Shown in pieces: positions 17 to 14,669 of a stretch of DNA of 14,669 nucleotides. The stretch is from a virus: the UHGV virus genome UHGV-0214741. The stretch is one strand, 5' to 3'. The notes below the pieces were generated by a model, which was given only the letters and a program-made list of their open reading frames with translations, did not search any database and was not told where the DNA came from. The stretch's first letter is position 1, and each line of letters begins with the position of its first letter. The position numbers and the translations under genes were made by a program.

Positions 17-236
17 GCTTCGACATCCTTCGCAAATCTTATACAAGTAAGATGGAATAAACCGGGGTCAGAGAGGGGGCTGTTCAAAACCTCGCCAACT
101 CTAGAAATACAATTTAGAGAATTAGGGCGAGCCGTCAAGCATTTGACAGGGGACAAGGGGCAGGTATGAATCAAAAATTTGAAGCAGTTAACGCTATTGA
201 CAGGAATGTGACAGATGTCGCTGATGCCAACGATAG

Positions 237-253
237 ATGATAGTTATTTATCA
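237..253. repeat. Candidate attL core (ATGATAGTTATTTATCA)
   Basis: Matches 14530-14546 at 16 of 17 positions; also an imperfect dyad (TGATAG-TTAT-YTATCA). Both copies are preceded by GCCAA a few bases upstream. Confidence 0.45.
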
Positions 254-257
254 GTTA

Positions 258-400
258 GTGTTCGCGGGTGTTCGTCGTGGTGTATCTATCTCATTTATTG
301 CTATGATTATAAAGGAAAATTTCGTTTTTCTTGTTCGCCCTTGTTCGTCGCTGTTTGCCCTTGTACGATGCACGGTGTAGTCAATGGTGTAGTTAATTTT
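258..400. repeat. Left arm repeat block: TTGTTCG-type 10 bp repeats (258-280 and a tandem array 331-370) followed by tandem 12 bp GGTGTAGTYAAT x2 (374-397)
   Basis: Seen directly: GTGTTCGCGG, GTGTTCGTCGTGG, then TTGTTCGCCC / TTGTTCGTCG / CTGTTTGCCC / TTGTACGATG as four consecutive 10 bp units, then ACGGTGTAGTCAATGGTGTAGTTAATTTT. The same architecture recurs at 14401-14461. Position next to int and att suggests arm-type recombinase or excisionase binding sites. Confidence 0.6.
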
Positions 401-3826: not shown

Positions 3827-5640
3827 AAAAAGCGCCAAATTTAAAACACCAGCCGCGTGACAAAATGACGGAAGTCATCATTTTTGCGGGTAGTGATGCG
3901 TGGGCACATGCGAAGCAGTGGCAGGAACAGGACGGGCGACTGGCTGGCGATAACGTGCCACCTGTCTGGCTTGGAGAGCAACAACTTGCCGAACTGGACA
4001 ACCTGCAAATCGTACCGGACGGACGCTATCGCGTGCGTCTCTACCAGGCGGGGTTATTGCGTCCGGGGCTTGTTAATACCATCGGGCAGAAACTGGCAGC
4101 GGCAGGTGTCAGGGATGCTGATTATTACCCTGAAGGAATGCACAGCCAGAAACGGGAGAACTGGCGCGAATATCTGGAACGTGAACGGGCAGAGCAGGCG
4201 GAAAAGAAAAAGGTAGTTGAACTGCCTGTAAAGAAAAAAGAGCGGGTAAAAGACGATAACGCTTCATCACTGGCGCTTAACCAGATGGGAGCAAGTCAAC
4301 GCGGCGAAGTTCTCCTGGCACATTATGGCGGTGAACTGGCGATTCATGCTGACTCTGACACTGTTCACCATTACAACGGCGTTGTATGGGAGCCAGTACA
4401 GGATAAAGAATTACAGCGAGCTATGGCACAGATTTTCATTGATGCGGAGATCAGCTATTCGCAGAACGCCATTAAATCGGCGGTCGATACCATGAAGTTA
4501 AGTTTGCCTGTTATGGGGAATACAGCCCGTAACCTGATTGGATTCAGTAACGGGGTATTTGATACCAGAACAGGTAATTTTCGGGAGCATAACAAAAACG
4601 ACTGGTTGTTAATTGCCAGTGAATTACCTTTCAGCCCACCAGCAGAGGGGGAAACGCTGGCAACACATGCGCCGAATTTCTGGAAGTGGTTACGCCGTTC
4701 GGTGGCTGAGAATGACCGCAAGGCGGATCGCGTACTGGCTGCATTATTCATGGTGCTGGCGAACCGGTACGACTGGCAGTTATTCATTGAGGTAACAGGT
4801 CCAGGGGGAAGTGGTAAAAGCGTGATGGCGGAGATTTGCACCATGCTGGCGGGTAAGGCCAACACAGTATCGGCAAGCATGAAGGCGCTGGAAGATGCAA
4901 GGGAACGCGCGTTAGTGGTTGGCTTTTCGCTGATTATCATGCCGGATATGACCCGCTACGCTGGTGATGGGGCAGGAATTAAGGCCATTACAGGCGGTGA
5001 CAAGGTGGCAATTGACCCGAAACACAAAGCCCCCTACTCAACGCGTATTCCGGCAGTAGTGCTGGCGGTTAACAATAACGCCATGTCATTCAGTGACCGC
5101 AGCGGGGGGATCTCACGTCGTCGGGTGATATTCAATTTTTCGGAAGTTGTACCGGAGAACGAACGCGATCCAATGCTGGCGGAAAAAATAGAAGGTGAGC
5201 TGGCGGTAGTGATTCGCCATCTGCTTACACGGTTTGCTGACCAGGACGAAGCCAGACGCCTGTTATATGAGCAGCAGAAATCTGAAGAAGCACTGGCGAT
5301 AAAGCGAGAGGGGGATTCGCTGGTGGACTTCTGCGGCTATCTCATGGCGTCGGTAATGTGTGATGGCCTGTTAGTGGGTAATGCTGAAATTGTGCCATTC
5401 AGCCCACGCAGGTATCTCTATCATGCCTATCTGGCTTATATGAGGGCACATGGGTTTGGTAAACCTGTAACACTGACGCGCTTCGGTAAAGATATGCCGG
5501 GGGCAATGGCGGAATATGGCAGGGAGTATATGAAACGGAAAACGAAGCACGGTTTGCGTTCAAACGTGACACTGACGGAGGAATCAGAAGACTGGATGCC
5601 ATCATGTGTATCGGTCACTAATGACGATAGCAAAAATTAA
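3823..5640 (+). CDS. Replication protein, phage/plasmid primase P4-family C-terminal domain with SF3-type NTPase (Walker A GPGGSGKS)
   Basis: The ORF track starts at GTG 3808, but ATG 3823 has GGAGAG upstream and an ATGA overlap with the preceding gene. Walker A VTGPGGSGKSV and a Walker-B-like hhhhPD (LIIMPD) are present. It lies immediately upstream of a TGTTCACC iteron array, as for P4 alpha and its ori. Confidence 0.85.
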   Translation: MKKAPNLKHQPRDKMTEVIIFAGSDAWAHAKQWQEQDGRLAGDNVPPVWLGEQQLAELDNLQIVPDGRYRVRLYQAGLLRPGLVNTIGQKLAAAGVRDADYYPEGMHSQKRENWREYLERERAEQAEKKKVVELPVKKKERVKDDNASSLALNQMGASQRGEVLLAHYGGELAIHADSDTVHHYNGVVWEPVQDKELQRAMAQIFIDAEISYSQNAIKSAVDTMKLSLPVMGNTARNLIGFSNGVFDTRTGNFREHNKNDWLLIASELPFSPPAEGETLATHAPNFWKWLRRSVAENDRKADRVLAALFMVLANRYDWQLFIEVTGPGGSGKSVMAEICTMLAGKANTVSASMKALEDARERALVVGFSLIIMPDMTRYAGDGAGIKAITGGDKVAIDPKHKAPYSTRIPAVVLAVNNNAMSFSDRSGGISRRRVIFNFSEVVPENERDPMLAEKIEGELAVVIRHLLTRFADQDEARRLLYEQQKSEEALAIKREGDSLVDFCGYLMASVMCDGLLVGNAEIVPFSPRRYLYHAYLAYMRAHGFGKPVTLTRFGKDMPGAMAEYGREYMKRKTKHGLRSNVTLTEESEDWMPSCVSVTNDDSKN

Positions 5641-5654
5641 ACTTATGGAATAAC

Positions 5655-5883
5655 TGTTCACCACTGTTCACCCTGTCATAAATATCTTTTGTATCAGTAT
5701 GTTATAGGGTGAACAGTTATTTATGAACTGTTCACCAAACTATTCACTGTTCACCTTTTTGATTGTTTATTGAGCTTCAAGGGTGAACAGTGGTGAACAG
5801 TTGGTGAATAGTTTTTGTGAAACTGTTCACCCCTTAACATTATGAATTAAAAGATAAAATATCAAAAGGTGAACAGGTGAAGG
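5655..5883. promoter_or_regulatory. Replication origin: array of TGTTCACC iterons in both orientations with AT-rich spacers
   Basis: Forward TGTTCACC at 5655, 5665, 5729, 5748, 5824. Reverse GGTGAACA at 5708, 5782, 5792, 5868. Degenerate copies at 5803 (GGTGAATA) and 5876 (GGTGAAGG). Several are at 10 bp phasing. TGTTCACC is the P4 ori/crr type I iteron as I recall it. Confidence 0.7.
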
Positions 5884-6595: not shown

Positions 6596-6860
6596 CGACA
6601 ACAGAGGGGACATTCCAGTGACATTTGAAGAAGTCCAGCAACATAAAAAGTTTCATGATTTTGATGATCTGGAAACCATGACAGCAAAAAAATATCGCCG
6701 TCTGCTTTCTTCCGATGCGTTGTTTGTTGTGGATCATCATGATTTTCTGCGTAGCTCACTGACCGGGGAAATTTTGGCAACCAACCGTGAGCAGGTGGAA
6801 GCGATGATCGAATATCTGTGGAAAATAAGGCGCAGAATGCGAGATCCCGTGAAACGGTAA
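6564..6860 (+). CDS. Hypothetical protein; true start probably GTG 6618 (about 80 aa)
   Basis: The ORF-track ATG at 6564 overlaps the SSB 3' end. An in-frame GTG at 6618 has AGAGGGGA 8 nt upstream. It ends at TAA 6858-6860, immediately before a terminator. Confidence 0.5.
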   Translation: MIRTGTTYRFSDNRGDIPVTFEEVQQHKKFHDFDDLETMTAKKYRRLLSSDALFVVDHHDFLRSSLTGEILATNREQVEAMIEYLWKIRRRMRDPVKR

Positions 6861-6869
6861 AATAATAAA

Positions 6870-6897
6870 GGCCTGGTAAAATCCAGGCCATTTTTTT
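6870..6897. terminator. Bidirectional rho-independent terminator between convergent genes
   Basis: Stem GGCCTGG (6870-6876), loop TAAAAT, stem CCAGGCC (6883-6889), then TTTTTTT (6891-6897) on the plus strand. The minus strand reads the same hairpin followed by TTTATTATT. Confidence 0.7.
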
Positions 6898-7467: not shown

Positions 7468-7498
7468 TTTGTTCGTGTTCTTTCGTGGTTGTTCGGTC
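7468..7498. repeat. Internal third copy of the TTGTTCG repeat array, in the divergent promoter region between the cargo gene and the capsid operon
   Basis: TTTGTTCGTG (7468-7477), TTCTTTCGTGG (7478-7488), TTGTTCGGTC (7489-7498) at about 10 bp phasing; compare 14401-14431 and 331-370. Candidate minus-strand -35 TTTACA (7464-7459) and -10 TATTAT (7439-7434) lie immediately beside it. Confidence 0.5.
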
Positions 7499-8858: not shown

Positions 8859-8870
8859 TCATGAGTAAGG

Positions 8871-8892
8871 AGGAGGCTGCGGCCTCCTTTTT
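8871..8892 (+). terminator. Intra-operon rho-independent terminator/attenuator after the capsid gene
   Basis: AGGAGGC / GCCTCCT stem (8871-8877 / 8882-8888) with TGCG loop, followed by a T-run through 8892. It sits 13 nt after the capsid stop and before the protease SD (GGAG 8902-8905). Confidence 0.6.
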
Positions 8893-11424: not shown

Positions 11425-11600
11425 ACAGGAGCAAACCAGGCTGATACGTGGACTGATAAGGCAGCGTGACACATGGAAGACACAGGAGACAGAGCACAAA
11501 GCCAACAGGACAGGGCGCACAAAACGCACCACAGCGAAGCGATTAACCGACCGTGACCGCGAGGTCATGGAATGTTTTCGCAATCGCTGGTGAGGCCGTC

Positions 11601-11700
11601 AGAGGGGGTGGGGGTGGTTTTCAGGACGAAACCGTCCCTGCCGGACACCGACCGCCCCCTCAAATTTTTGTGCACGGTAATTTTTTTGAAAATAATTGGG
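11601..11700. other. Candidate cos / terminase recognition region: GC-rich dyad element followed by an AT-rich tract, directly upstream of terS
   Basis: GAGGGGGTGG (11602-11611) pairs with CCGCCCCCTC (11652-11661) with one mismatch; nested GGACG-AAAC-CGTCC hairpin (11624-11637); then AAATTTTTG...TTTTTTTGAAAATAATT. Functional assignment is by position only. Confidence 0.3.
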
Positions 11701-12069: not shown

Positions 12070-13714
12070 GTACGCAGAAGGCGTAAAAAACGGCAAAATT
12101 ACGGCCTGTAAACGACTGAAACAGGCTGTTAAACGGTATTTTTCTGACCTTGAAAACTCCCTTTACACGTTCGATCCGGAGGTCGTGGAGCGGTTTATTG
12201 CCTTTTCCCGGGTGTGCCCGCACGTAAAAGGCGCAATGCGCGGTAGCCCCATTGAACTTGAGCCGTGGCAGCAGTTCGCCTTTGCCTGCATCCTGGGATT
12301 TAAGGTTAAGGCCACCGGACGGCGCAAATACACCAGCGCATTCATTGAAGTACCGCGAAAAAATGCCAAATCCACGGTCGCCGCTATCCTGGCTAACTGG
12401 TTTCTGGTTATGGAAAACGGGCAGCAGGATATTTACACCGCCGCCGTGAGTCGTGATCAGGCGCGGATCGTGTTTGATGATGCGCGTCAGATGTGCCTTT
12501 TATCCCGACCGTTACGAAAGCGGGTAAATATTCAGGCGCACAAGGTGATACACCCGAAAACCAACAGCCTGTTAAAGCCACTGGCAGCAAAAGCGGCAAC
12601 CATTGAGGGGACAAACCCGAGTCTTGCCATTGTGGATGAATATCACCTGCACCCAGACAACGGGGTTTATTCCGCACTTGAACTGGGGATGGGGGCGCGT
12701 CCGGAGGGGCTGTTATTTGCCATCACCACATCGGGGAGCAACGTTGTTTCAGCCTGTAAACAACACTACGACTATTGCTGCCAGATACTGGATGGTGAAG
12801 AGGTGAACGAATCCATGTTCGTACTGATTTACGAGCTGGATGATGAAAGCGAGGTTGACGATCCGGCGATGTGGATAAAGGCGAATCCCAATATCGATGT
12901 TTCCGTCGATCGTGAAAAACTGGCCTCAACCATCCAGAAAGCGCGGGGTATTCCGTCGCAGTGGGTGGAAATGCTCACCAAGCGATTCAATATCTGGTGT
13001 CAGGGGGCTACGCCGTGGATGGGTAACGGTGCATGGGCGGAGTGCGCCGGAACGTTCGCTGAGGCGGATTTATACGGGCAGGAGTGCTATGCGGGGCTGG
13101 ACTTATCATCAACCAGCGATATTTCCAGCGTGTGCTATGCCTTTCCGGTCGGTAAAAAGATTATGCTGGTTTCACGTCACTATCTACCGGAATTTCAGCT
13201 ACAGAACCCTGCCAATAAAAACCGCGCCATCTATCGCCAGTGGGCAAAGGCGGGCTGGATACGCACAACACCGGGTGACTGCATTGATTATGACCGTATC
13301 CGTGATGACATCATGGCGGATGCAGAGAATTTCAATATCAGGCTGGTGGGTTTCGATACATGGAACGCCACGCACCTGAGGACGCAGCTACAGGGAGCGG
13401 GATTTGAGGTGGAGCCGTTCCCGCAAACGTACCTTCGTTTTAGTCCGGCGGCGAAATCGTTCGAAGTTTTTGTTAACCGGAAGGTGATTGTTCATCGTGG
13501 TGATCCGGTGCTGGCCTGGTCAATGAGTAATGTTGTGATGCAGAGTGACGCGAACGCCAATATCAAGCCGAACAAGAAAAAATCATCCAATAAGATAGAC
13601 CCGAGCGTTGCGGCGCTGATGGCGTTTGGCACATTCCAGGCTGAGCATGAGGAATTTGCATTTGATATGAGCGACAGCCAGAAAGAGCGACTTGCGGCAT
13701 TTGATGGGGTATGA
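12053..13714 (+). CDS. terL: Terminase large subunit (Terminase_1-like ATPase/nuclease)
   Basis: 553 aa. The ORF opens with TTG at 12053, preceded by AGAGGA 5 nt upstream; there is no in-frame ATG nearby. It overlaps the terS 3' end. Size and position fit TerL; VPRKNAKST is a Walker-A-like motif. The exact start is uncertain. Confidence 0.85.
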   Translation: MTAWHEYAEGVKNGKITACKRLKQAVKRYFSDLENSLYTFDPEVVERFIAFSRVCPHVKGAMRGSPIELEPWQQFAFACILGFKVKATGRRKYTSAFIEVPRKNAKSTVAAILANWFLVMENGQQDIYTAAVSRDQARIVFDDARQMCLLSRPLRKRVNIQAHKVIHPKTNSLLKPLAAKAATIEGTNPSLAIVDEYHLHPDNGVYSALELGMGARPEGLLFAITTSGSNVVSACKQHYDYCCQILDGEEVNESMFVLIYELDDESEVDDPAMWIKANPNIDVSVDREKLASTIQKARGIPSQWVEMLTKRFNIWCQGATPWMGNGAWAECAGTFAEADLYGQECYAGLDLSSTSDISSVCYAFPVGKKIMLVSRHYLPEFQLQNPANKNRAIYRQWAKAGWIRTTPGDCIDYDRIRDDIMADAENFNIRLVGFDTWNATHLRTQLQGAGFEVEPFPQTYLRFSPAAKSFEVFVNRKVIVHRGDPVLAWSMSNVVMQSDANANIKPNKKKSSNKIDPSVAALMAFGTFQAEHEEFAFDMSDSQKERLAAFDGV

Positions 13715-14001
13715 CGAGAATGACTGAAACTGATCTACTAAAAATAATTCGCCGCATTACCGGAATCAGTCAGCAGCCTGACGAACAGGCTACACAGCCG
13801 GACAGCGTGATAGCCGAAAATTACGCGCGTGTGGTGGCTGAGGTAATGCGCCGTGACGGTATTGAGCTTAACGGCGTGGATATGCGCAACATACGAACCA
13901 GAGTTCTTGAGTTGCTGGCATACCGTCGCCGTTCTCAACAACGGAGGGAGAGCGCGAAAAATACTTACCAGTGGAGGAAGCCGGAGCACTTACGGCGGTA
14001 A
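13711..14001 (+). CDS. Hypothetical protein (96 aa), translationally coupled to terL
   Basis: Its ATG overlaps the terL stop (ATGA at 13711-13714). Arg-rich C-terminus. Last gene of the packaging operon; function unknown. Confidence 0.5.
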   Translation: MTRMTETDLLKIIRRITGISQQPDEQATQPDSVIAENYARVVAEVMRRDGIELNGVDMRNIRTRVLELLAYRRRSQQRRESAKNTYQWRKPEHLRR

Positions 14002-14020
14002 CTGGTTGATATTACCGAAA

Positions 14021-14226
14021 GTGCAAAAATGCACTTAGCAACTGGTGGCGAGTTGCAGATCTGCAACTCGACTATGAAACTACCCGTAGTTTGGGTAGTA
14101 AGAGTAACACCCAGATTTTGGGGCTTACTCGCGATACCCAAATAAAGGGTATCGGTGTAAGAAATATCGTTTCTCATATGTGAGCACCGAGGGCGGAATT
14201 CCGCCTTCGGTTACTTATTGTGCTCA
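14021..14226. repeat. Non-coding cluster of perfect and near-perfect palindromes / stem-loops
   Basis: GTGCA-AAAA-TGCAC (14021-14034); perfect 18 bp palindrome AGTTGCAGATCTGCAACT (14051-14068); ACTACCC-N7-GGGTAGT (14079-14099); GATACCC-N7-GGGTATC (14133-14153); perfect 14 bp GGCGGAATTCCGCC (14192-14205) inside a 24 bp near-palindrome (14187-14210), itself flanked by TGAGCAC (14181-14187) and GTGCTCA (14220-14226). Confidence 0.5.
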
Positions 14227-14400
14227 TGCACAGGGAGGGGCGGGTCAAATCTCTGTACCCTGACGTCTTCCGGACTGCCAGCCCCATCGATTTTTTATAC
14301 CCGCGAAAAATGAAAAACGCTTCACGCTGGTGGGCCTGATGCCGATAACTGGTTTCATGACTGATAGCCGGAAAATGATAACGATTAAAGCGTGTTGATC

Positions 14401-14461
14401 TTTGTTCGTGGTTGTTCGATATTGTTCGTGGAACGGTGTAGTTAATGGTGTAGTTAATTTT
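14401..14461. repeat. Right arm repeat block: TTGTTCG repeats x3 followed by tandem GGTGTAGTTAAT x2
   Basis: TTTGTTCGTGG (14401-14411), TTGTTCGAT (14412-14420), ATTGTTCGTGG (14421-14431), then ACGGTGTAGTTAATGGTGTAGTTAATTTT (14433-14461). This 29-mer matches 372-400 with one mismatch. Confidence 0.6.
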
Positions 14462-14529
14462 ACTGTTTTTGACGAGCTTATTGTTTGCAACTCAATGAAA
14501 AATAAAGGCTAATAAGCCAAATGCTATAA

Positions 14530-14546
14530 ATGATAGTTATCTATCA
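14530..14546. repeat. Candidate attR core (ATGATAGTTATCTATCA)
   Basis: Direct repeat of 237-253 with one mismatch; a perfect dyad TGATAG-TTAT-CTATCA. Confidence 0.45.
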
Positions 14547-14631
14547 TGTGGAGTAGATTGGTCAGGCAAATAAGCTCTTGTCAGCGGCAGGGCGTTCTGC
14601 CGATAACCGTAACCGAAGATGATAACTGACA

Positions 14632-14669
14632 ATGGGTAAAACGAACGACTGGCTGGACTTTGATCAACT
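14632..14669 (+). CDS. clpS: 5' end of ClpS, the ClpAP adaptor protein (partial, runs off window end)
   Basis: ATG GGT AAA ACG AAC GAC TGG CTG GAC TTT GAT CAA = MGKTNDWLDFDQ, which matches the E. coli ClpS N-terminus as I recall it. Confidence 0.8.
   Translation, partial: MGKTNDWLDFDQ

What the first reader, a model, noticed from the sequence alone, without database searches (positions are those of the whole stretch)
14021..14226. Unexplained palindrome-dense non-coding block at the right end of the element
Within about 200 bp after the last packaging gene there are at least six strong dyads, including a perfect 18 bp palindrome (AGTTGCAGATCTGCAACT), a perfect 14 bp palindrome (GGCGGAATTCCGCC) nested inside a 24 bp near-palindrome that is itself bracketed by a 7 bp inverted repeat, and two look-alike hairpins of the form xxTACCC-N7-GGGTAxx. 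No ORF of plausible composition covers it and there are no terminator T-tracts. That density is unlikely by chance. It could be a structured small RNA, a set of protein-binding sites (for example for the RHH or AlpA protein), or a packaging or transfer signal.
Basis: seen in the sequence. Interest (0 to 1): 0.55.

Follow-up and report, generated by a model that had tools for sequence, protein, structure and literature searches.

The report
Hairpin array beside a borrowed cos site
The palindrome-rich stretch is real and far beyond chance: it is the non-coding tail of a phage satellite's packaging operon, built from portable hairpin modules, and it ends about 20 bp before a packaging (cos) site nearly identical to that of SfV/P27-type phages; what the hairpins do is still unproven.

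Summary
Observation confirmed. Six of the 13 perfect hairpins (stem >=7) in the 14.7-kb window lie in 14019-14205, and folding z is about -8 to -11 on both strands. The window is an E. coli capsid-forming PICI between cspD/yljB and clpS. The block fills the gap between the last ORF (93 aa, unknown function, stop at 14001) and window 14233-14315. That stretch is 92-95% identical to the cos of phages SfV, SfII and ST64B, and about 82% to phiP27. So the packaging signal lies next to the block, not inside it.

The block is a mosaic:
- M1: an IHF-consensus site on the stop codon plus a hairpin.
- M2-M5: a portable four-hairpin cassette.
- M6-M7: always linked to this cos. M7 is the only terminator-like hairpin.

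Related satellites carry the same or analogous modules, shuffled and duplicated. Real phages and plasmids do not. There is no Rfam match, no promoter, no strand bias and no coding signal. Close homologues show almost no compensatory change.

Best reading (about 0.4): a cis-acting 3' trailer and insulator of the late operon in front of cos-attP-int. Rivals: cos accessory, processed RNA, recombination scars. A second, diverged cos-like site sits at about 11.6 kb.

The parts
13720..14001 (+). Last ORF of the late operon ('orf96', 93 aa as annotated in RefSeq; an upstream ATG at 13711 would give 96 aa). Function unknown. It is the conserved last gene of many different E. coli satellites.
   Evidence: hypothetical protein WP_001353111. 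phrog_1561, unknown function. No Pfam, NCBIfam or PDB hit. Three-helix model, pLDDT 77.6, with no fold match. Same last-gene position in L005-L010 and L091.
13999..14011 (-). IHF-consensus site. It reads TAACTGGTTGATA on the + strand, which is WATCAANNNNTTR on the - strand. Its TAA is the stop codon of orf96. This is the conserved head of module M1.
   Evidence: Only such match in this orientation in the window. The same motif occurs 44 times (strict) or 69 times (loose), always in this orientation, in 40 distinct related arrays, against about 1 expected. The invariant columns of the unit alignment are exactly the specified consensus positions. IHF binding itself is inferred, not shown.
14019..14036 (.). 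M1 hairpin, AAGTGCA-AAAA-TGCACTT.
   Evidence: Paralogous units in related satellites keep a hairpin here with at least 12 different stem sequences.
14041..14048 (+). 7/8 Chi-like octamer, ACTGGTGG. It is a perfect GCTGGTGG at this M1-M2 junction in most relatives.
14049..14070 (.). M2: perfect 22-bp palindrome with a central GATC. First hairpin of the portable M2-M5 cassette.
   Evidence: Cassette behaviour. The central C->T variant (AGATTT) shows the GATC is dispensable.
14077..14099 (.). M3: ACTACCC-GTAGTTT-GGGTAGT, with an overlapping alternative hairpin AAACTAC-CC-GTAGTTT. Most relatives carry a 9-nt duplication here.
14102..14130 (.). M4: two-tier hairpin, GAGTAA..CCCA-GATTT-TGGG..TTACTC.
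   Evidence: The outer stem takes uncompensated changes in relatives.
14132..14154 (.). M5: CGATACCC-AAATAAA-GGGTATCG. The loop varies freely in relatives. This hairpin holds the one clean compensatory pair (CG->TA).
14155..14179 (.). M6: hairpin around AAGAAA-TAT-CGTTTCT. Always found together with M7 and the SfV-type cos.
14180..14227 (+). M7: outer stem (GAGCAC/GTGCTC) around the strong inner stem ACCGAGGGCGG-AATT-CCGCCTTCGGT (14186-14211), followed by TACTTATTGT. Terminator-like on the + strand only.
   Evidence: only terminator-like hit in 13600-14669, 11 pairs of which 8 are G-C..
14233..14315 (+). Phage-type (HNH/P27-TerS class) cos site. The G-rich box is at 14233-14246. The cohesive-end equivalent TGCCAGCCCC is at 14276-14285. 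The T/A-tract with ATACCCGCGAAAAA (about 14296-14314) is the counterpart of the HK97 TerS-binding position.
   Evidence: 92-95% identity to SfII, SfV, SfI, SfIV, ST64B and related phages, and about 82% to phiP27. phiP27 annotates 'cos-site' CGCCCGCCCC at the aligned position. The SfI record ends, and the SfV/SfIV records start, inside this stretch. The HK97 TerS site lies +15..+29 from the cut (PMC11331095). Function here is inferred by homology.
14326..14333 (+). Perfect Chi (GCTGGTGG) between cos and att.
14393..14546 (+). Right attachment region. It holds TGTTCG repeats, GGTGTAGTTAAT repeats and ATGATAGTTAT, all repeated at 233-400 on the left end.
   Evidence: D1, D2, D9. The circular record L091 closes across these repeats.
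11596..11690 (+). Second, diverged cos-like site in the canonical HK97 position (after HNH and a small ORF, before terS). Probably the element's own cos.
   Evidence: Colinear alignment with the phiP27, SfV and right-end cos sites (A2). The element's TerS, TerL and HNH are only 30-37% identical to SfV's.

Best explanation
The block is the non-coding 3' trailer of the satellite's late (capsid/packaging) operon. It is not a gene. It is assembled from three kinds of portable cis modules:
- M1: an IHF-consensus site on the last stop codon plus a hairpin.
- M2-M5: a four-hairpin cassette.
- M6-M7: a pair that always travels with an acquired SfV/P27-type cos site.

Proposed mechanism. Rightward late transcription runs out of orf96 into the hairpins. 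The stable stems protect the 3' end of the message. The last and strongest stem, M7 (14186-14211, followed by a T-rich tail), stops transcription about 20 bp before the cos homology. This keeps late transcription out of cos and attP. In the excised circle it also keeps it out of the co-oriented int gene. In the integrated state it keeps it out of the co-oriented host gene clpS.

Helper phages of this class have no such block. Their late transcript must cross cos to reach terS and terL. The presumed IHF site adds a DNA bend at the operon end.

What is shown: the anatomy, the position, the modularity, the adjacency to cos, the terminator-like shape of M7, and the restriction to satellites.
What is inferred: termination, RNA protection, IHF binding and any effect on packaging.
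For: Position and orientation:
- The block starts at the stop codon of the last ORF and ends 6 bp before the phage-homologous cos.
- int lies downstream in the same orientation in the circular form (L091). clpS lies about 400 bp downstream in the same orientation in the integrated form.

Termination:
- M7 is the only terminator-like site in 13600-14669, and only on the + strand.
- An unrelated canonical terminator (GACGTGGCCAACGTC + T6) sits about 70 bp before the variant cos of L010. So 'terminator before cos' recurs with a different sequence.
- Other arrays also contain classical stem + T-run terminators, for example L064, L065 and L035.

Contrast with read-through positions:
- Phages have no hairpins between the HNH stop codon and cos.
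- The window's internal cos-like site, which must be read through to express terS/terL, also has none.

Family-wide pattern:
- Hairpin density at the right end holds across the family, mean z about -4 over 39 arrays.
- Stems covary among paralogous units. The best Watson-Crick stem averages 4.74 against 3.09 +/- 0.12 in shuffles, with at least 12 stem sequence classes.

Negative evidence for other readings:
- No promoter, no Rfam family and no coding signal.
Against: - Six or seven strong hairpins are far more than termination needs, and only M7 has a T-rich tail.
- M2-M5 is 97-100% identical, loops included, between satellites whose neighbouring orf96 differs by 15-20%. This suggests either sequence-specific recognition or recent lateral spread, not a generic stem-loop role.
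- Among 19 close variants, substitutions hit paired and unpaired positions equally (16/124 against 8/58). There is 1 compensatory, 5 wobble and 9 disrupting changes.
- The fold signal and the mismatch spectrum are strand-symmetric. This fits DNA palindromes as well as RNA.
- An IHF site is a DNA-level feature that an RNA-level role does not explain.
- No transcript data were available.
Confidence: 0.4

Rival explanations
1. DNA-level packaging accessory. The block is a satellite-specific left flank of the hijacked cos that helps a helper terminase (TerS/TerL/HNH of SfV/P27-type phages) find or cut the satellite DNA. Two features could do this: an IHF-induced bend, and repeated copies of the (T/C)ACCC motif that also lies at the predicted TerS-binding position of cos. 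Satellite DNA would then compete better with phage DNA.
For: - M6-M7 is found only with this cos, in every satellite that has it.
- L091, a satellite without TerL or portal, has this block plus this cos as its only HNH-type cos.
- TACCC/GGGTA occurs 6 times in 14071-14320 against 0.47 expected (post hoc P about 1e-5).
- M3 and M5 (TACCC) and M4 (CACCC) mirror the SfV (ATACCCGCG) and phiP27 (ACACCCGCG) versions of the site, which lines up with the HK97 TerS-binding position.
- IHF sites are a known component of lambda cosB (PMC9026076).
Against: - In HK97 the TerS site is on the other side of the cut (+15..+29), and that sequence is already inside the conserved cos core.
- The helper phages themselves have nothing like the block.
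- M2-M5 also occurs in satellites with no recognisable cos nearby, such as L007, L023, L028 and L039.
- In Rpp-type PICIs the analogous arrays are separated from the lambda-type cos sites by orf96.
- The motif enrichment was noticed after the fact.
Confidence: 0.2
2. Recombination scars or selfish palindromic modules. The array is a by-product of frequent exchange between satellites at their right ends. It would consist of duplicated 'stop codon + IHF site + hairpin' ends and short palindromic cassettes bounded by Chi-like GGTGG motifs, kept because they are harmless filler in a size-constrained genome.
For: - Modules are shuffled, duplicated and truncated between elements.
- Paralogous units begin with (C)GGTAAC, like the orf96 stop context.
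- Chi is about 8-fold enriched in the arrays, 38 in 20.8 kb, and flanks M2-M5.
- Stems are no better conserved than loops among close variants.
Against: - Hairpin potential is maintained through many different stem sequences in the unit family.
- The IHF-consensus positions are invariant in 52 units.
- M2-M5 is better conserved than the flanking gene.
- All of these point to selection.
Confidence: 0.15
3. Processed structured RNA. The 3' UTR is cut out of the late mRNA and acts in trans, as a 3'-UTR-derived sRNA, a sponge or a protein decoy. This would be analogous to satellite-encoded regulatory RNAs.
For: - Very stable consecutive hairpins end in a terminator-like stem, the usual anatomy of 3'-UTR-derived sRNAs.
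- Conservation of M2-M5 is near-perfect, including the loops.
- Some outer stems of related units pair only through G.U on the + strand.
Against: - No Rfam family.
- No strand bias in z-scores (18 of 39 arrays favour +) or in G.T against A.C mismatches (7 against 12).
- Almost no compensatory change.
- No own promoter.
Confidence: 0.12
4. Operator or decoy sites. Each palindrome would be the binding site of a dimeric regulator, from the element (RHH, AlpA) or from helper phages.
For: Perfect 22-bp and 14-bp palindromes and two TACCC-N7-GGGTA sites look like operators.
Against: - None of the half-sites recurs near any promoter of the element.
- Stems at the equivalent position differ completely between related units while pairing is kept.
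- There are no matches in helper phage genomes.
Confidence: 0.05
5. A small protein is encoded across the block. Candidates are the 42-codon ORF from ATG 14029, the in-frame continuation of orf96 after its TAA, or the 70-aa minus-strand ORF.
For: - The orf96 frame stays open for 52 codons after the stop.
- Rare stop-loss variants exist (P0001 of 144 aa, P0004 of 123 aa).
- A 9-nt indel in M3 preserves the frame.
Against: - Synonymous/non-synonymous counts and codon-position counts do not single out any of the six frames.
- A 1-nt deletion variant exists (L219).
- The start context differs between copies, and the stop position varies.
- No family hits.
Confidence: 0.03

Closest known systems
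cos sites of HK97-like, HNH-dependent phages with P27-family TerS (phiP27, SfV, SfII, ST64B, HK97)
   Same: Window 14233-14315, directly abutting the block, is 92-95% identical to the cos region of SfV/SfII/ST64B, and about 82% to phiP27. It shares the G-rich box, the 10-nt cohesive-end sequence and the downstream A/T tract.
   Different: The palindrome block has no counterpart in these phages. There, the HNH gene runs up to about 25 bp from cos. Here this cos lies after terL/orf96, not between HNH and terS. The element's own terminase and HNH proteins are only 30-37% identical to SfV's.
BIME / RIP (RIB) elements of E. coli: extragenic REP palindromes combined with an IHF site
   Same: Extragenic position at the 3' end of an operon. 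Short imperfect palindromes packed back to back. A consensus IHF site is part of the unit. Mosaic arrangement. Proposed roles include mRNA 3'-end protection, termination and DNA architecture (established knowledge; PMC3333891, PMC2817692).
   Different: No REP consensus. Units are all in one orientation rather than alternating. There are only 1-3 copies per genome, restricted to satellites. No RAYT transposase is present in the window.
Rho-independent terminators and 3'-UTR stabiliser stem-loops
   Same: M7 has an 11-pair G+C-rich stem followed by a T-rich tail, at the end of the operon.
   Different: The other five or six hairpins lack T tails. The array is much longer and much better conserved than a terminator needs to be.
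Dual cos sites (cos1/cos2) of the Rpp-type E. coli PICI EcCICFT073
   Same: A satellite carrying two cos sites, with packaging specificity set by sequences next to the cut site (PMC6739421). The lambda-type pair is seen in the related loci here.
   Different: Those are lambda-type cosN sites flanking rpp. Here the two sites are of the HNH/P27 class, one diverged (own) and one phage-like. The hairpin array is not described in those papers.

Membership tests
HNH/P27-type phage cos site (applies to 14233-14315, not to the block) | Sequence homology to a cos region that is annotated in a phage or forms the ends of phage records | tested here: met
   92-95% identity over 83 bp to SfII, SfV, ST64B and related phages, and about 82% to phiP27. 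The phiP27 misc_feature 'cos-site' aligns to 14276-14285. The SfI record ends, and the SfV/SfIV records start, inside the match.
HNH/P27-type phage cos site | Location between the HNH gene and terS | tested here: not met
   The right-end site follows terL and orf96. The internal cos-like site at 11596-11690 does meet this feature.
HNH/P27-type phage cos site | Cleavage to 10-nt 3' cohesive ends in packaged DNA | not testable with these tools
   Needs end-sequencing of DNA from particles.
HNH/P27-type phage cos site | The palindrome block 14021-14226 is part of the conserved cos | tested here: not met
   Phage homology starts at 14233. There are no phage matches to 14040-14232 except a chance 39-nt hit in Yersinia phages.
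Known RNA family (Rfam 15) | Covariance-model match at the gathering or a permissive threshold | tested here: not met
   0 matches at gathering threshold over the whole window. Only two E>7 chance hits in 13900-14500.
Conserved structured RNA (generic) | Compensatory base changes, and stems better conserved than loops | tested here: inconclusive
   Close variants show 1 compensatory, 5 wobble and 9 disrupting changes, with equal variability in stems and loops. Paralogous M1-type units show strong stem covariation. There is no strand preference.
REP/BIME (RIP) elements | High-copy dispersal in extragenic regions of the chromosome | tested here: not met
   1-3 places per genome, in 228 of 5426 genomes for one unit type, all in satellite right ends. 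The block is in 671 genomes with a median of 1 place.
REP/BIME (RIP) elements | IHF-consensus site associated with the palindromic units | tested here: met
   YAANNNNTTGATW at 13999-14011. 44 strict and 69 loose matches in 40 arrays against about 1 expected. This is a consensus match only.
REP/BIME (RIP) elements | REP consensus sequence, alternating orientation and an associated RAYT transposase | tested here: not met
   No similarity to chromosomal repeats outside satellites. All units are in one orientation. No transposase is annotated in the near-identical element in L001.
Intrinsic terminator | G+C-rich stem followed by a T tract | tested here: met
   Met by M7 only (14186-14211 plus TACTTATTGT). 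The other hairpins do not meet it.
lambda-type cosB (R-site array with IHF site) | Repeated TerS-binding elements on the packaging-start side of the cut, next to the terS gene | tested here: not met
   The block lies on the opposite (last-packaged) side of the cut, and no terS gene follows.
Plasmid oriT or oriT mimic | Sequence similarity to the nic/inverted-repeat region of a known transfer origin | tested here: not met
   No plasmid matches except one excised satellite recorded as a plasmid, one chromosome-sized record (4.9 Mb, H96) and a 58% match in a 32.6-kb record (H97) that was not examined.

The most novel reading that the evidence does not exclude
The M2-M7 array is a portable, satellite-only 'cos adaptor'. 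In this reading it is a cis-acting cassette that travels with a stolen helper-phage cos site. Through IHF bending and repeated (T/C)ACCC TerS-site mimics, it would recruit the helper's terminase/HNH machinery to satellite DNA. A capsid-forming PICI that already has its own cos at about 11.6 kb and its own terminase would thereby gain a second, independent packaging route through SfV/P27-type helpers.
Probability: 0.15. Interest if true: 0.7.

Novelty: new variant of a known kind. Interest (0 to 1): 0.45.

Why it matters
Capsid-forming PICIs are reported to package themselves exclusively with their own terminase (bioRxiv 10.1101/2022.09.08.507074). The location of their cos site is not given in the texts I could read.

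This element has two cos-like sites. One is a diverged copy in the canonical position. The other is a near-perfect copy of a helper-type phage cos at the right end, preceded by a hairpin array found only in satellites.

If the right-end module works, such satellites have two packaging routes. The hairpin array would then be a candidate determinant of how a satellite uses, or insulates, a borrowed packaging signal.

The wider pattern is also an undescribed and easily testable feature of a very common class of E. coli mobile elements: IHF-consensus sites with covarying hairpins after the conserved last gene of hundreds of satellites.

If the array is only a terminator and filler, the finding is ordinary.

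Tried and rejected
- Rfam at gathering and permissive thresholds: nothing.
- tRNA/tmRNA scan: nothing.
- Promoter scan: nothing in or beside the block.
- Literature search for the exact sequences: no paper. The cf-PICI, Rpp-PICI and Feiss papers do not describe the array or map the cf-PICI cos. The EHEC prophage sRNA papers gave no link.
- Coding hypothesis: rejected by six-frame substitution analysis and a frameshift variant.
- Strand-specific RNA hypothesis: G.T against A.C counts and two-strand z-scores on 39 arrays show no asymmetry.
- Operator hypothesis: half-sites are absent from the element's promoter regions.
- oriT mimic: no plasmid similarity.
- Integron attC, Xer/dif-like site, LexA box, lambda boxB/nut and RfaH ops: compared by eye with remembered consensus sequences only. 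None fits. These were not formal tests.
- 'Every right-end array hides another phage cos': candidate segments from L012 and L007 have no match in 50,697 phage records. Dropped.
- DNA-end hypotheses (first-injected end, RecBCD protection): weakened. In Rpp-type PICIs the analogous arrays are not at a DNA end.
- orf96 as the binder of the array: homologues are all close. The AlphaFold model is a plain three-helix protein with no significant fold match. Dead end.
- A genome-contig scan with the degenerate M3 pattern returned only chance hairpins from unrelated taxa. The protein-based genome-contig scan found nothing.

Full report
**1. What the window is.**
The window matches E. coli chromosomes at 100% identity. 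In NZ_OZ001728 the region is annotated as follows: integrase, AlpA-like HTH regulator, Icd-like protein, P4-type primase, SSB, major capsid protein, HK97 prohead protease, portal, head-tail connector, HNH endonuclease, P27-family TerS, TerL and a final 93-aa hypothetical protein. It is inserted between cspD/yljB and clpS. This gene set is that of a capsid-forming PICI as described in bioRxiv 10.1101/2022.09.08.507074. The right and left ends share imperfect direct repeats at 233-400 and 14393-14546. clpS starts at 14634.

**2.
The central one is a perfect 22-bp palindrome at 14049-14070.
- The whole window contains 13 distinct perfect hairpins with stems of at least 7 bp. Six of them lie in 14019-14205.
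- Folding 14000-14260 gives -111.9 kcal/mol against -71.5 +/- 5.2 for dinucleotide shuffles (z -7.7). The minus strand gives z -7.9.
- The predicted structure is a row of seven independent hairpins. They sit back to back, one every 23-32 bp centre to centre.

**3. What lies next to it.**
- A search of 50,697 phage records with 14000-14400 returned 21 records, and every hit lies within window 14229-14319 (query 229-319); most span 14233-14315 or part of it.
- These are cos regions. phiP27 annotates a 10-nt 'cos-site', CGCCCGCCCC, which aligns with window TGCCAGCCCC at 14276-14285.
- The SfI record ends at the equivalent of 14285. The SfV and SfIV records begin at the equivalent of 14269.
- In HK97, the archetype of this packaging class, TerS binds 15-29 bp downstream of the cut, on an A-tract (PMC11331095). 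The corresponding window sequence, ATACCCGCGAAAAATGAA, lies inside the conserved core.

It begins 7 bp to the right of the block. In the phages, the sequence on that side is the end of the HNH gene, with no hairpins. The block itself has no phage match.

**4. A second cos-like site.**
The gap between the small ORF after HNH and terS (about 11596-11690) aligns colinearly with the phiP27, SfV and right-end cos sites. It has a G-rich box, CCGGAC, CCGCCCC and a T run, but it is diverged in sequence. The element's TerS, TerL and HNH are only 36%, 30% and 37% identical to those of SfV.

My inference is that the internal site is the element's own cos, and that the right-end site is a recently acquired helper-type cos. 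This is inference; no end-sequence data exist.

**5. Anatomy of the block.**
I compared the region downstream of orf96 homologues in 40 distinct related right ends. These came from six E. coli loci, 80 IMG/VR loci and a circular 10.79-kb satellite recorded as a plasmid. The comparison resolves the block into modules.
- **M1 (13998-14045)** belongs to orf96.
- **M2-M5 (14046-14154)** moves as one cassette. It occurs with or without the phage-type cos. It occurs twice in some elements, and once truncated by an insertion.
- **M6-M7 (14155-14227)** occurs only together with the SfV-type cos.

**6. orf96 and the unit family.**
orf96 is the last gene of very different satellites. These include cf-PICIs with TerL, elements with a ClpP-capsid fusion, and classical Rpp-type PICIs. 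In the Rpp type, two inverted lambda-type cosN sites flank rpp just upstream of orf96.

Downstream of orf96, nearly all of these elements carry hairpin-dense DNA. The mean z is about -4 on either strand over 39 arrays, and the window is the extreme case.

A recurrent unit of about 45 nt begins with YAANNNNTTGATW, the IHF consensus read on the other strand.
- There are 44 strict and 69 loose matches in 20.8 kb, all in one orientation, against about 1 expected.
- In an alignment of 52 units, the invariant columns are exactly the specified consensus positions.
- Each motif is followed by a two-tier hairpin whose stems differ between copies but stay complementary. The mean best Watson-Crick stem is 4.74 against 3.09 +/- 0.12 in shuffles, with at least 12 stem sequence classes.
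- The window has one such unit. Its TAA is the stop codon of orf96.
- These units number 1-3 per genome and are confined to satellites.

**7. Tests of the RNA, coding and operator readings.**

*RNA:*
- There is no Rfam match and no promoter-like site.
- The fold signal is strand-symmetric: 18 of 39 arrays favour the + strand.
- Isolated stem mismatches are 7 G.T against 12 A.C.
- Across 19 distinct close variants of M2-M7, 16 of 124 paired and 8 of 58 unpaired positions vary. These give one compensatory pair (14132-14154), five wobble changes and nine disruptions.

*Coding:*
- No reading frame shows a coding pattern, and a 1-nt deletion variant exists.

*Operators:*
- The palindrome half-sites do not recur elsewhere in the element.

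So the structure-specific evidence comes from the paralogous unit family. It does not come from orthologues of this block, which are simply very well conserved, loops included.

**8. Interpretation.**
The features that hold across the family are:
- the position at the 3' end of the rightward late operon, before att;
- a fixed orientation;
- hairpin potential;
- an IHF-consensus site;
- at least one terminator in the array.

In the window the only terminator-like hairpin is M7, 20 bp before cos. L010 has an unrelated classical terminator before its variant cos. By contrast, no hairpin precedes cos in the phages or at the window's internal cos-like site. At both of those positions transcription must continue into terS.

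I therefore favour a cis-acting 3' trailer and insulator, at confidence about 0.4. It would end and protect the late transcript, and keep transcription out of cos, attP, int (circular form) and clpS.

This does not explain the near-perfect conservation of M2-M5, nor why so many hairpins are needed. The rivals are:
- a cos accessory for a helper terminase, supported by the M6-M7/cos linkage and by six (T/C)ACCC-type motifs resembling the predicted TerS site;
- a processed 3'-UTR RNA;
- recombination scars. Chi sites are about 8-fold enriched in these arrays and flank M2-M5.

**9. Comparison with known systems.**
- The adjoining 14233-14315 is a member of the HNH/P27-type cos family by homology. 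The block is not part of it.
- The nearest analogue for the block and its relatives is the BIME/RIP class of E. coli, which combines extragenic palindromes with an IHF site (PMC3333891, PMC2817692). It fails the defining tests of copy number, REP consensus and alternating orientation.
- It resembles the dual-cos arrangement of EcCICFT073 (PMC6739421) only in having two cos sites.
- I found no description of the array in the papers read or by sequence search of the literature.

**10. Verdict.**
The feature is real and statistically exceptional, and is now placed in context. It is a satellite-specific modular hairpin array forming the left flank of a borrowed phage cos at the end of the late operon. 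Its function is unproven. The most likely role is ordinary: termination, insulation and architecture. Interest is moderate. It comes mainly from the two-cos arrangement and from the family-wide 'IHF site plus covarying hairpin' units, both directly testable.

Noticed in passing
window 11596-11690: A second cos-like site lies in the canonical HNH-to-terS position. It has the same architecture as the phiP27/SfV cos (G-rich box, CCGGAC, CCGCCCC, T run) but a diverged sequence. The element therefore has two cos-like sites 2.6 kb apart, and the right-end one is the phage-like copy.
   Followed up: partly
window, whole; Chi at 1305, 2386, 5319, 6199, 8969, 9221, 10455, 13342, 14326 (+) and 3116, 4636, 6225, 7966 (-): There are 13 Chi octamers in 14.7 kb, which I estimate from memory (not measured here) at about 4 times the E. 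coli average. Orientation is biased 9:4 towards the + strand. Related right-end arrays have 38 Chi sites in 20.8 kb.
   Followed up: partly
window 332-357, 7470-7495, 14393-14428: TGTTCG repeat clusters occur at both att regions and once upstream of the capsid operon (D1). They may be integrase arm-type sites. The copy at 7470 is unexplained.
   Followed up: no
window 233-253 and 14526-14546; L091 ends: A further direct repeat, ATGATAGTTAT(C/T)TATCA, lies outside the 69-nt att repeat. The circular 10.79-kb record L091 closes across this outer repeat. The true element boundary may therefore be about 14546, 88 bp before the clpS ATG.
   Followed up: partly
window 4359-4372, 5643-5831: P4-type (C)TGTTCACC iterons, including two 29-bp inverted pairs, lie directly after the primase gene. 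This is the probable replication origin.
   Followed up: no
window 13720-14001 and loci L005-L091: The 93-aa orf96 is the conserved last gene of cf-PICIs, ClpP-capsid-fusion satellites and Rpp-type PICIs alike. It has 922 close homologues, a three-helix model with a basic C-terminal helix, and no known fold or family. Its frame stays open for 52 codons after the TAA. Two singleton stop-loss variants exist (P0001, P0004).
   Followed up: partly
L012 about 200-490 nt and L018 about 500-790 nt after the orf96 stop codon: Between two copies of the M2-M5 cassette lies a roughly 300-bp insert. It has 3x TTGCGGGTTA, an A+T-rich centre with an IHF-consensus site, and 3x inverted TAACCCGC. A cos-like G-box/CCCGCC/T-run segment follows. 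It looks like an origin or packaging-type site. No phage match was found.
   Followed up: partly
L008-L085 (Rpp-type PICIs), about 940 and 76 bp upstream of orf96: Two inverted lambda-type cosN sequences (GGGCGGCGACCT) flank the rpp-like 'terminase small subunit' gene. This agrees with the published cos1/cos2 of EcCICFT073.
   Followed up: yes
window 8867-8889 and 6870-6889: Strong hairpins lie right after the major capsid gene (AAGGAGG..CCTCCTT) and between the convergent ORFs ending at 6860 and 6896. They are probably an attenuator and a bidirectional terminator.
   Followed up: no
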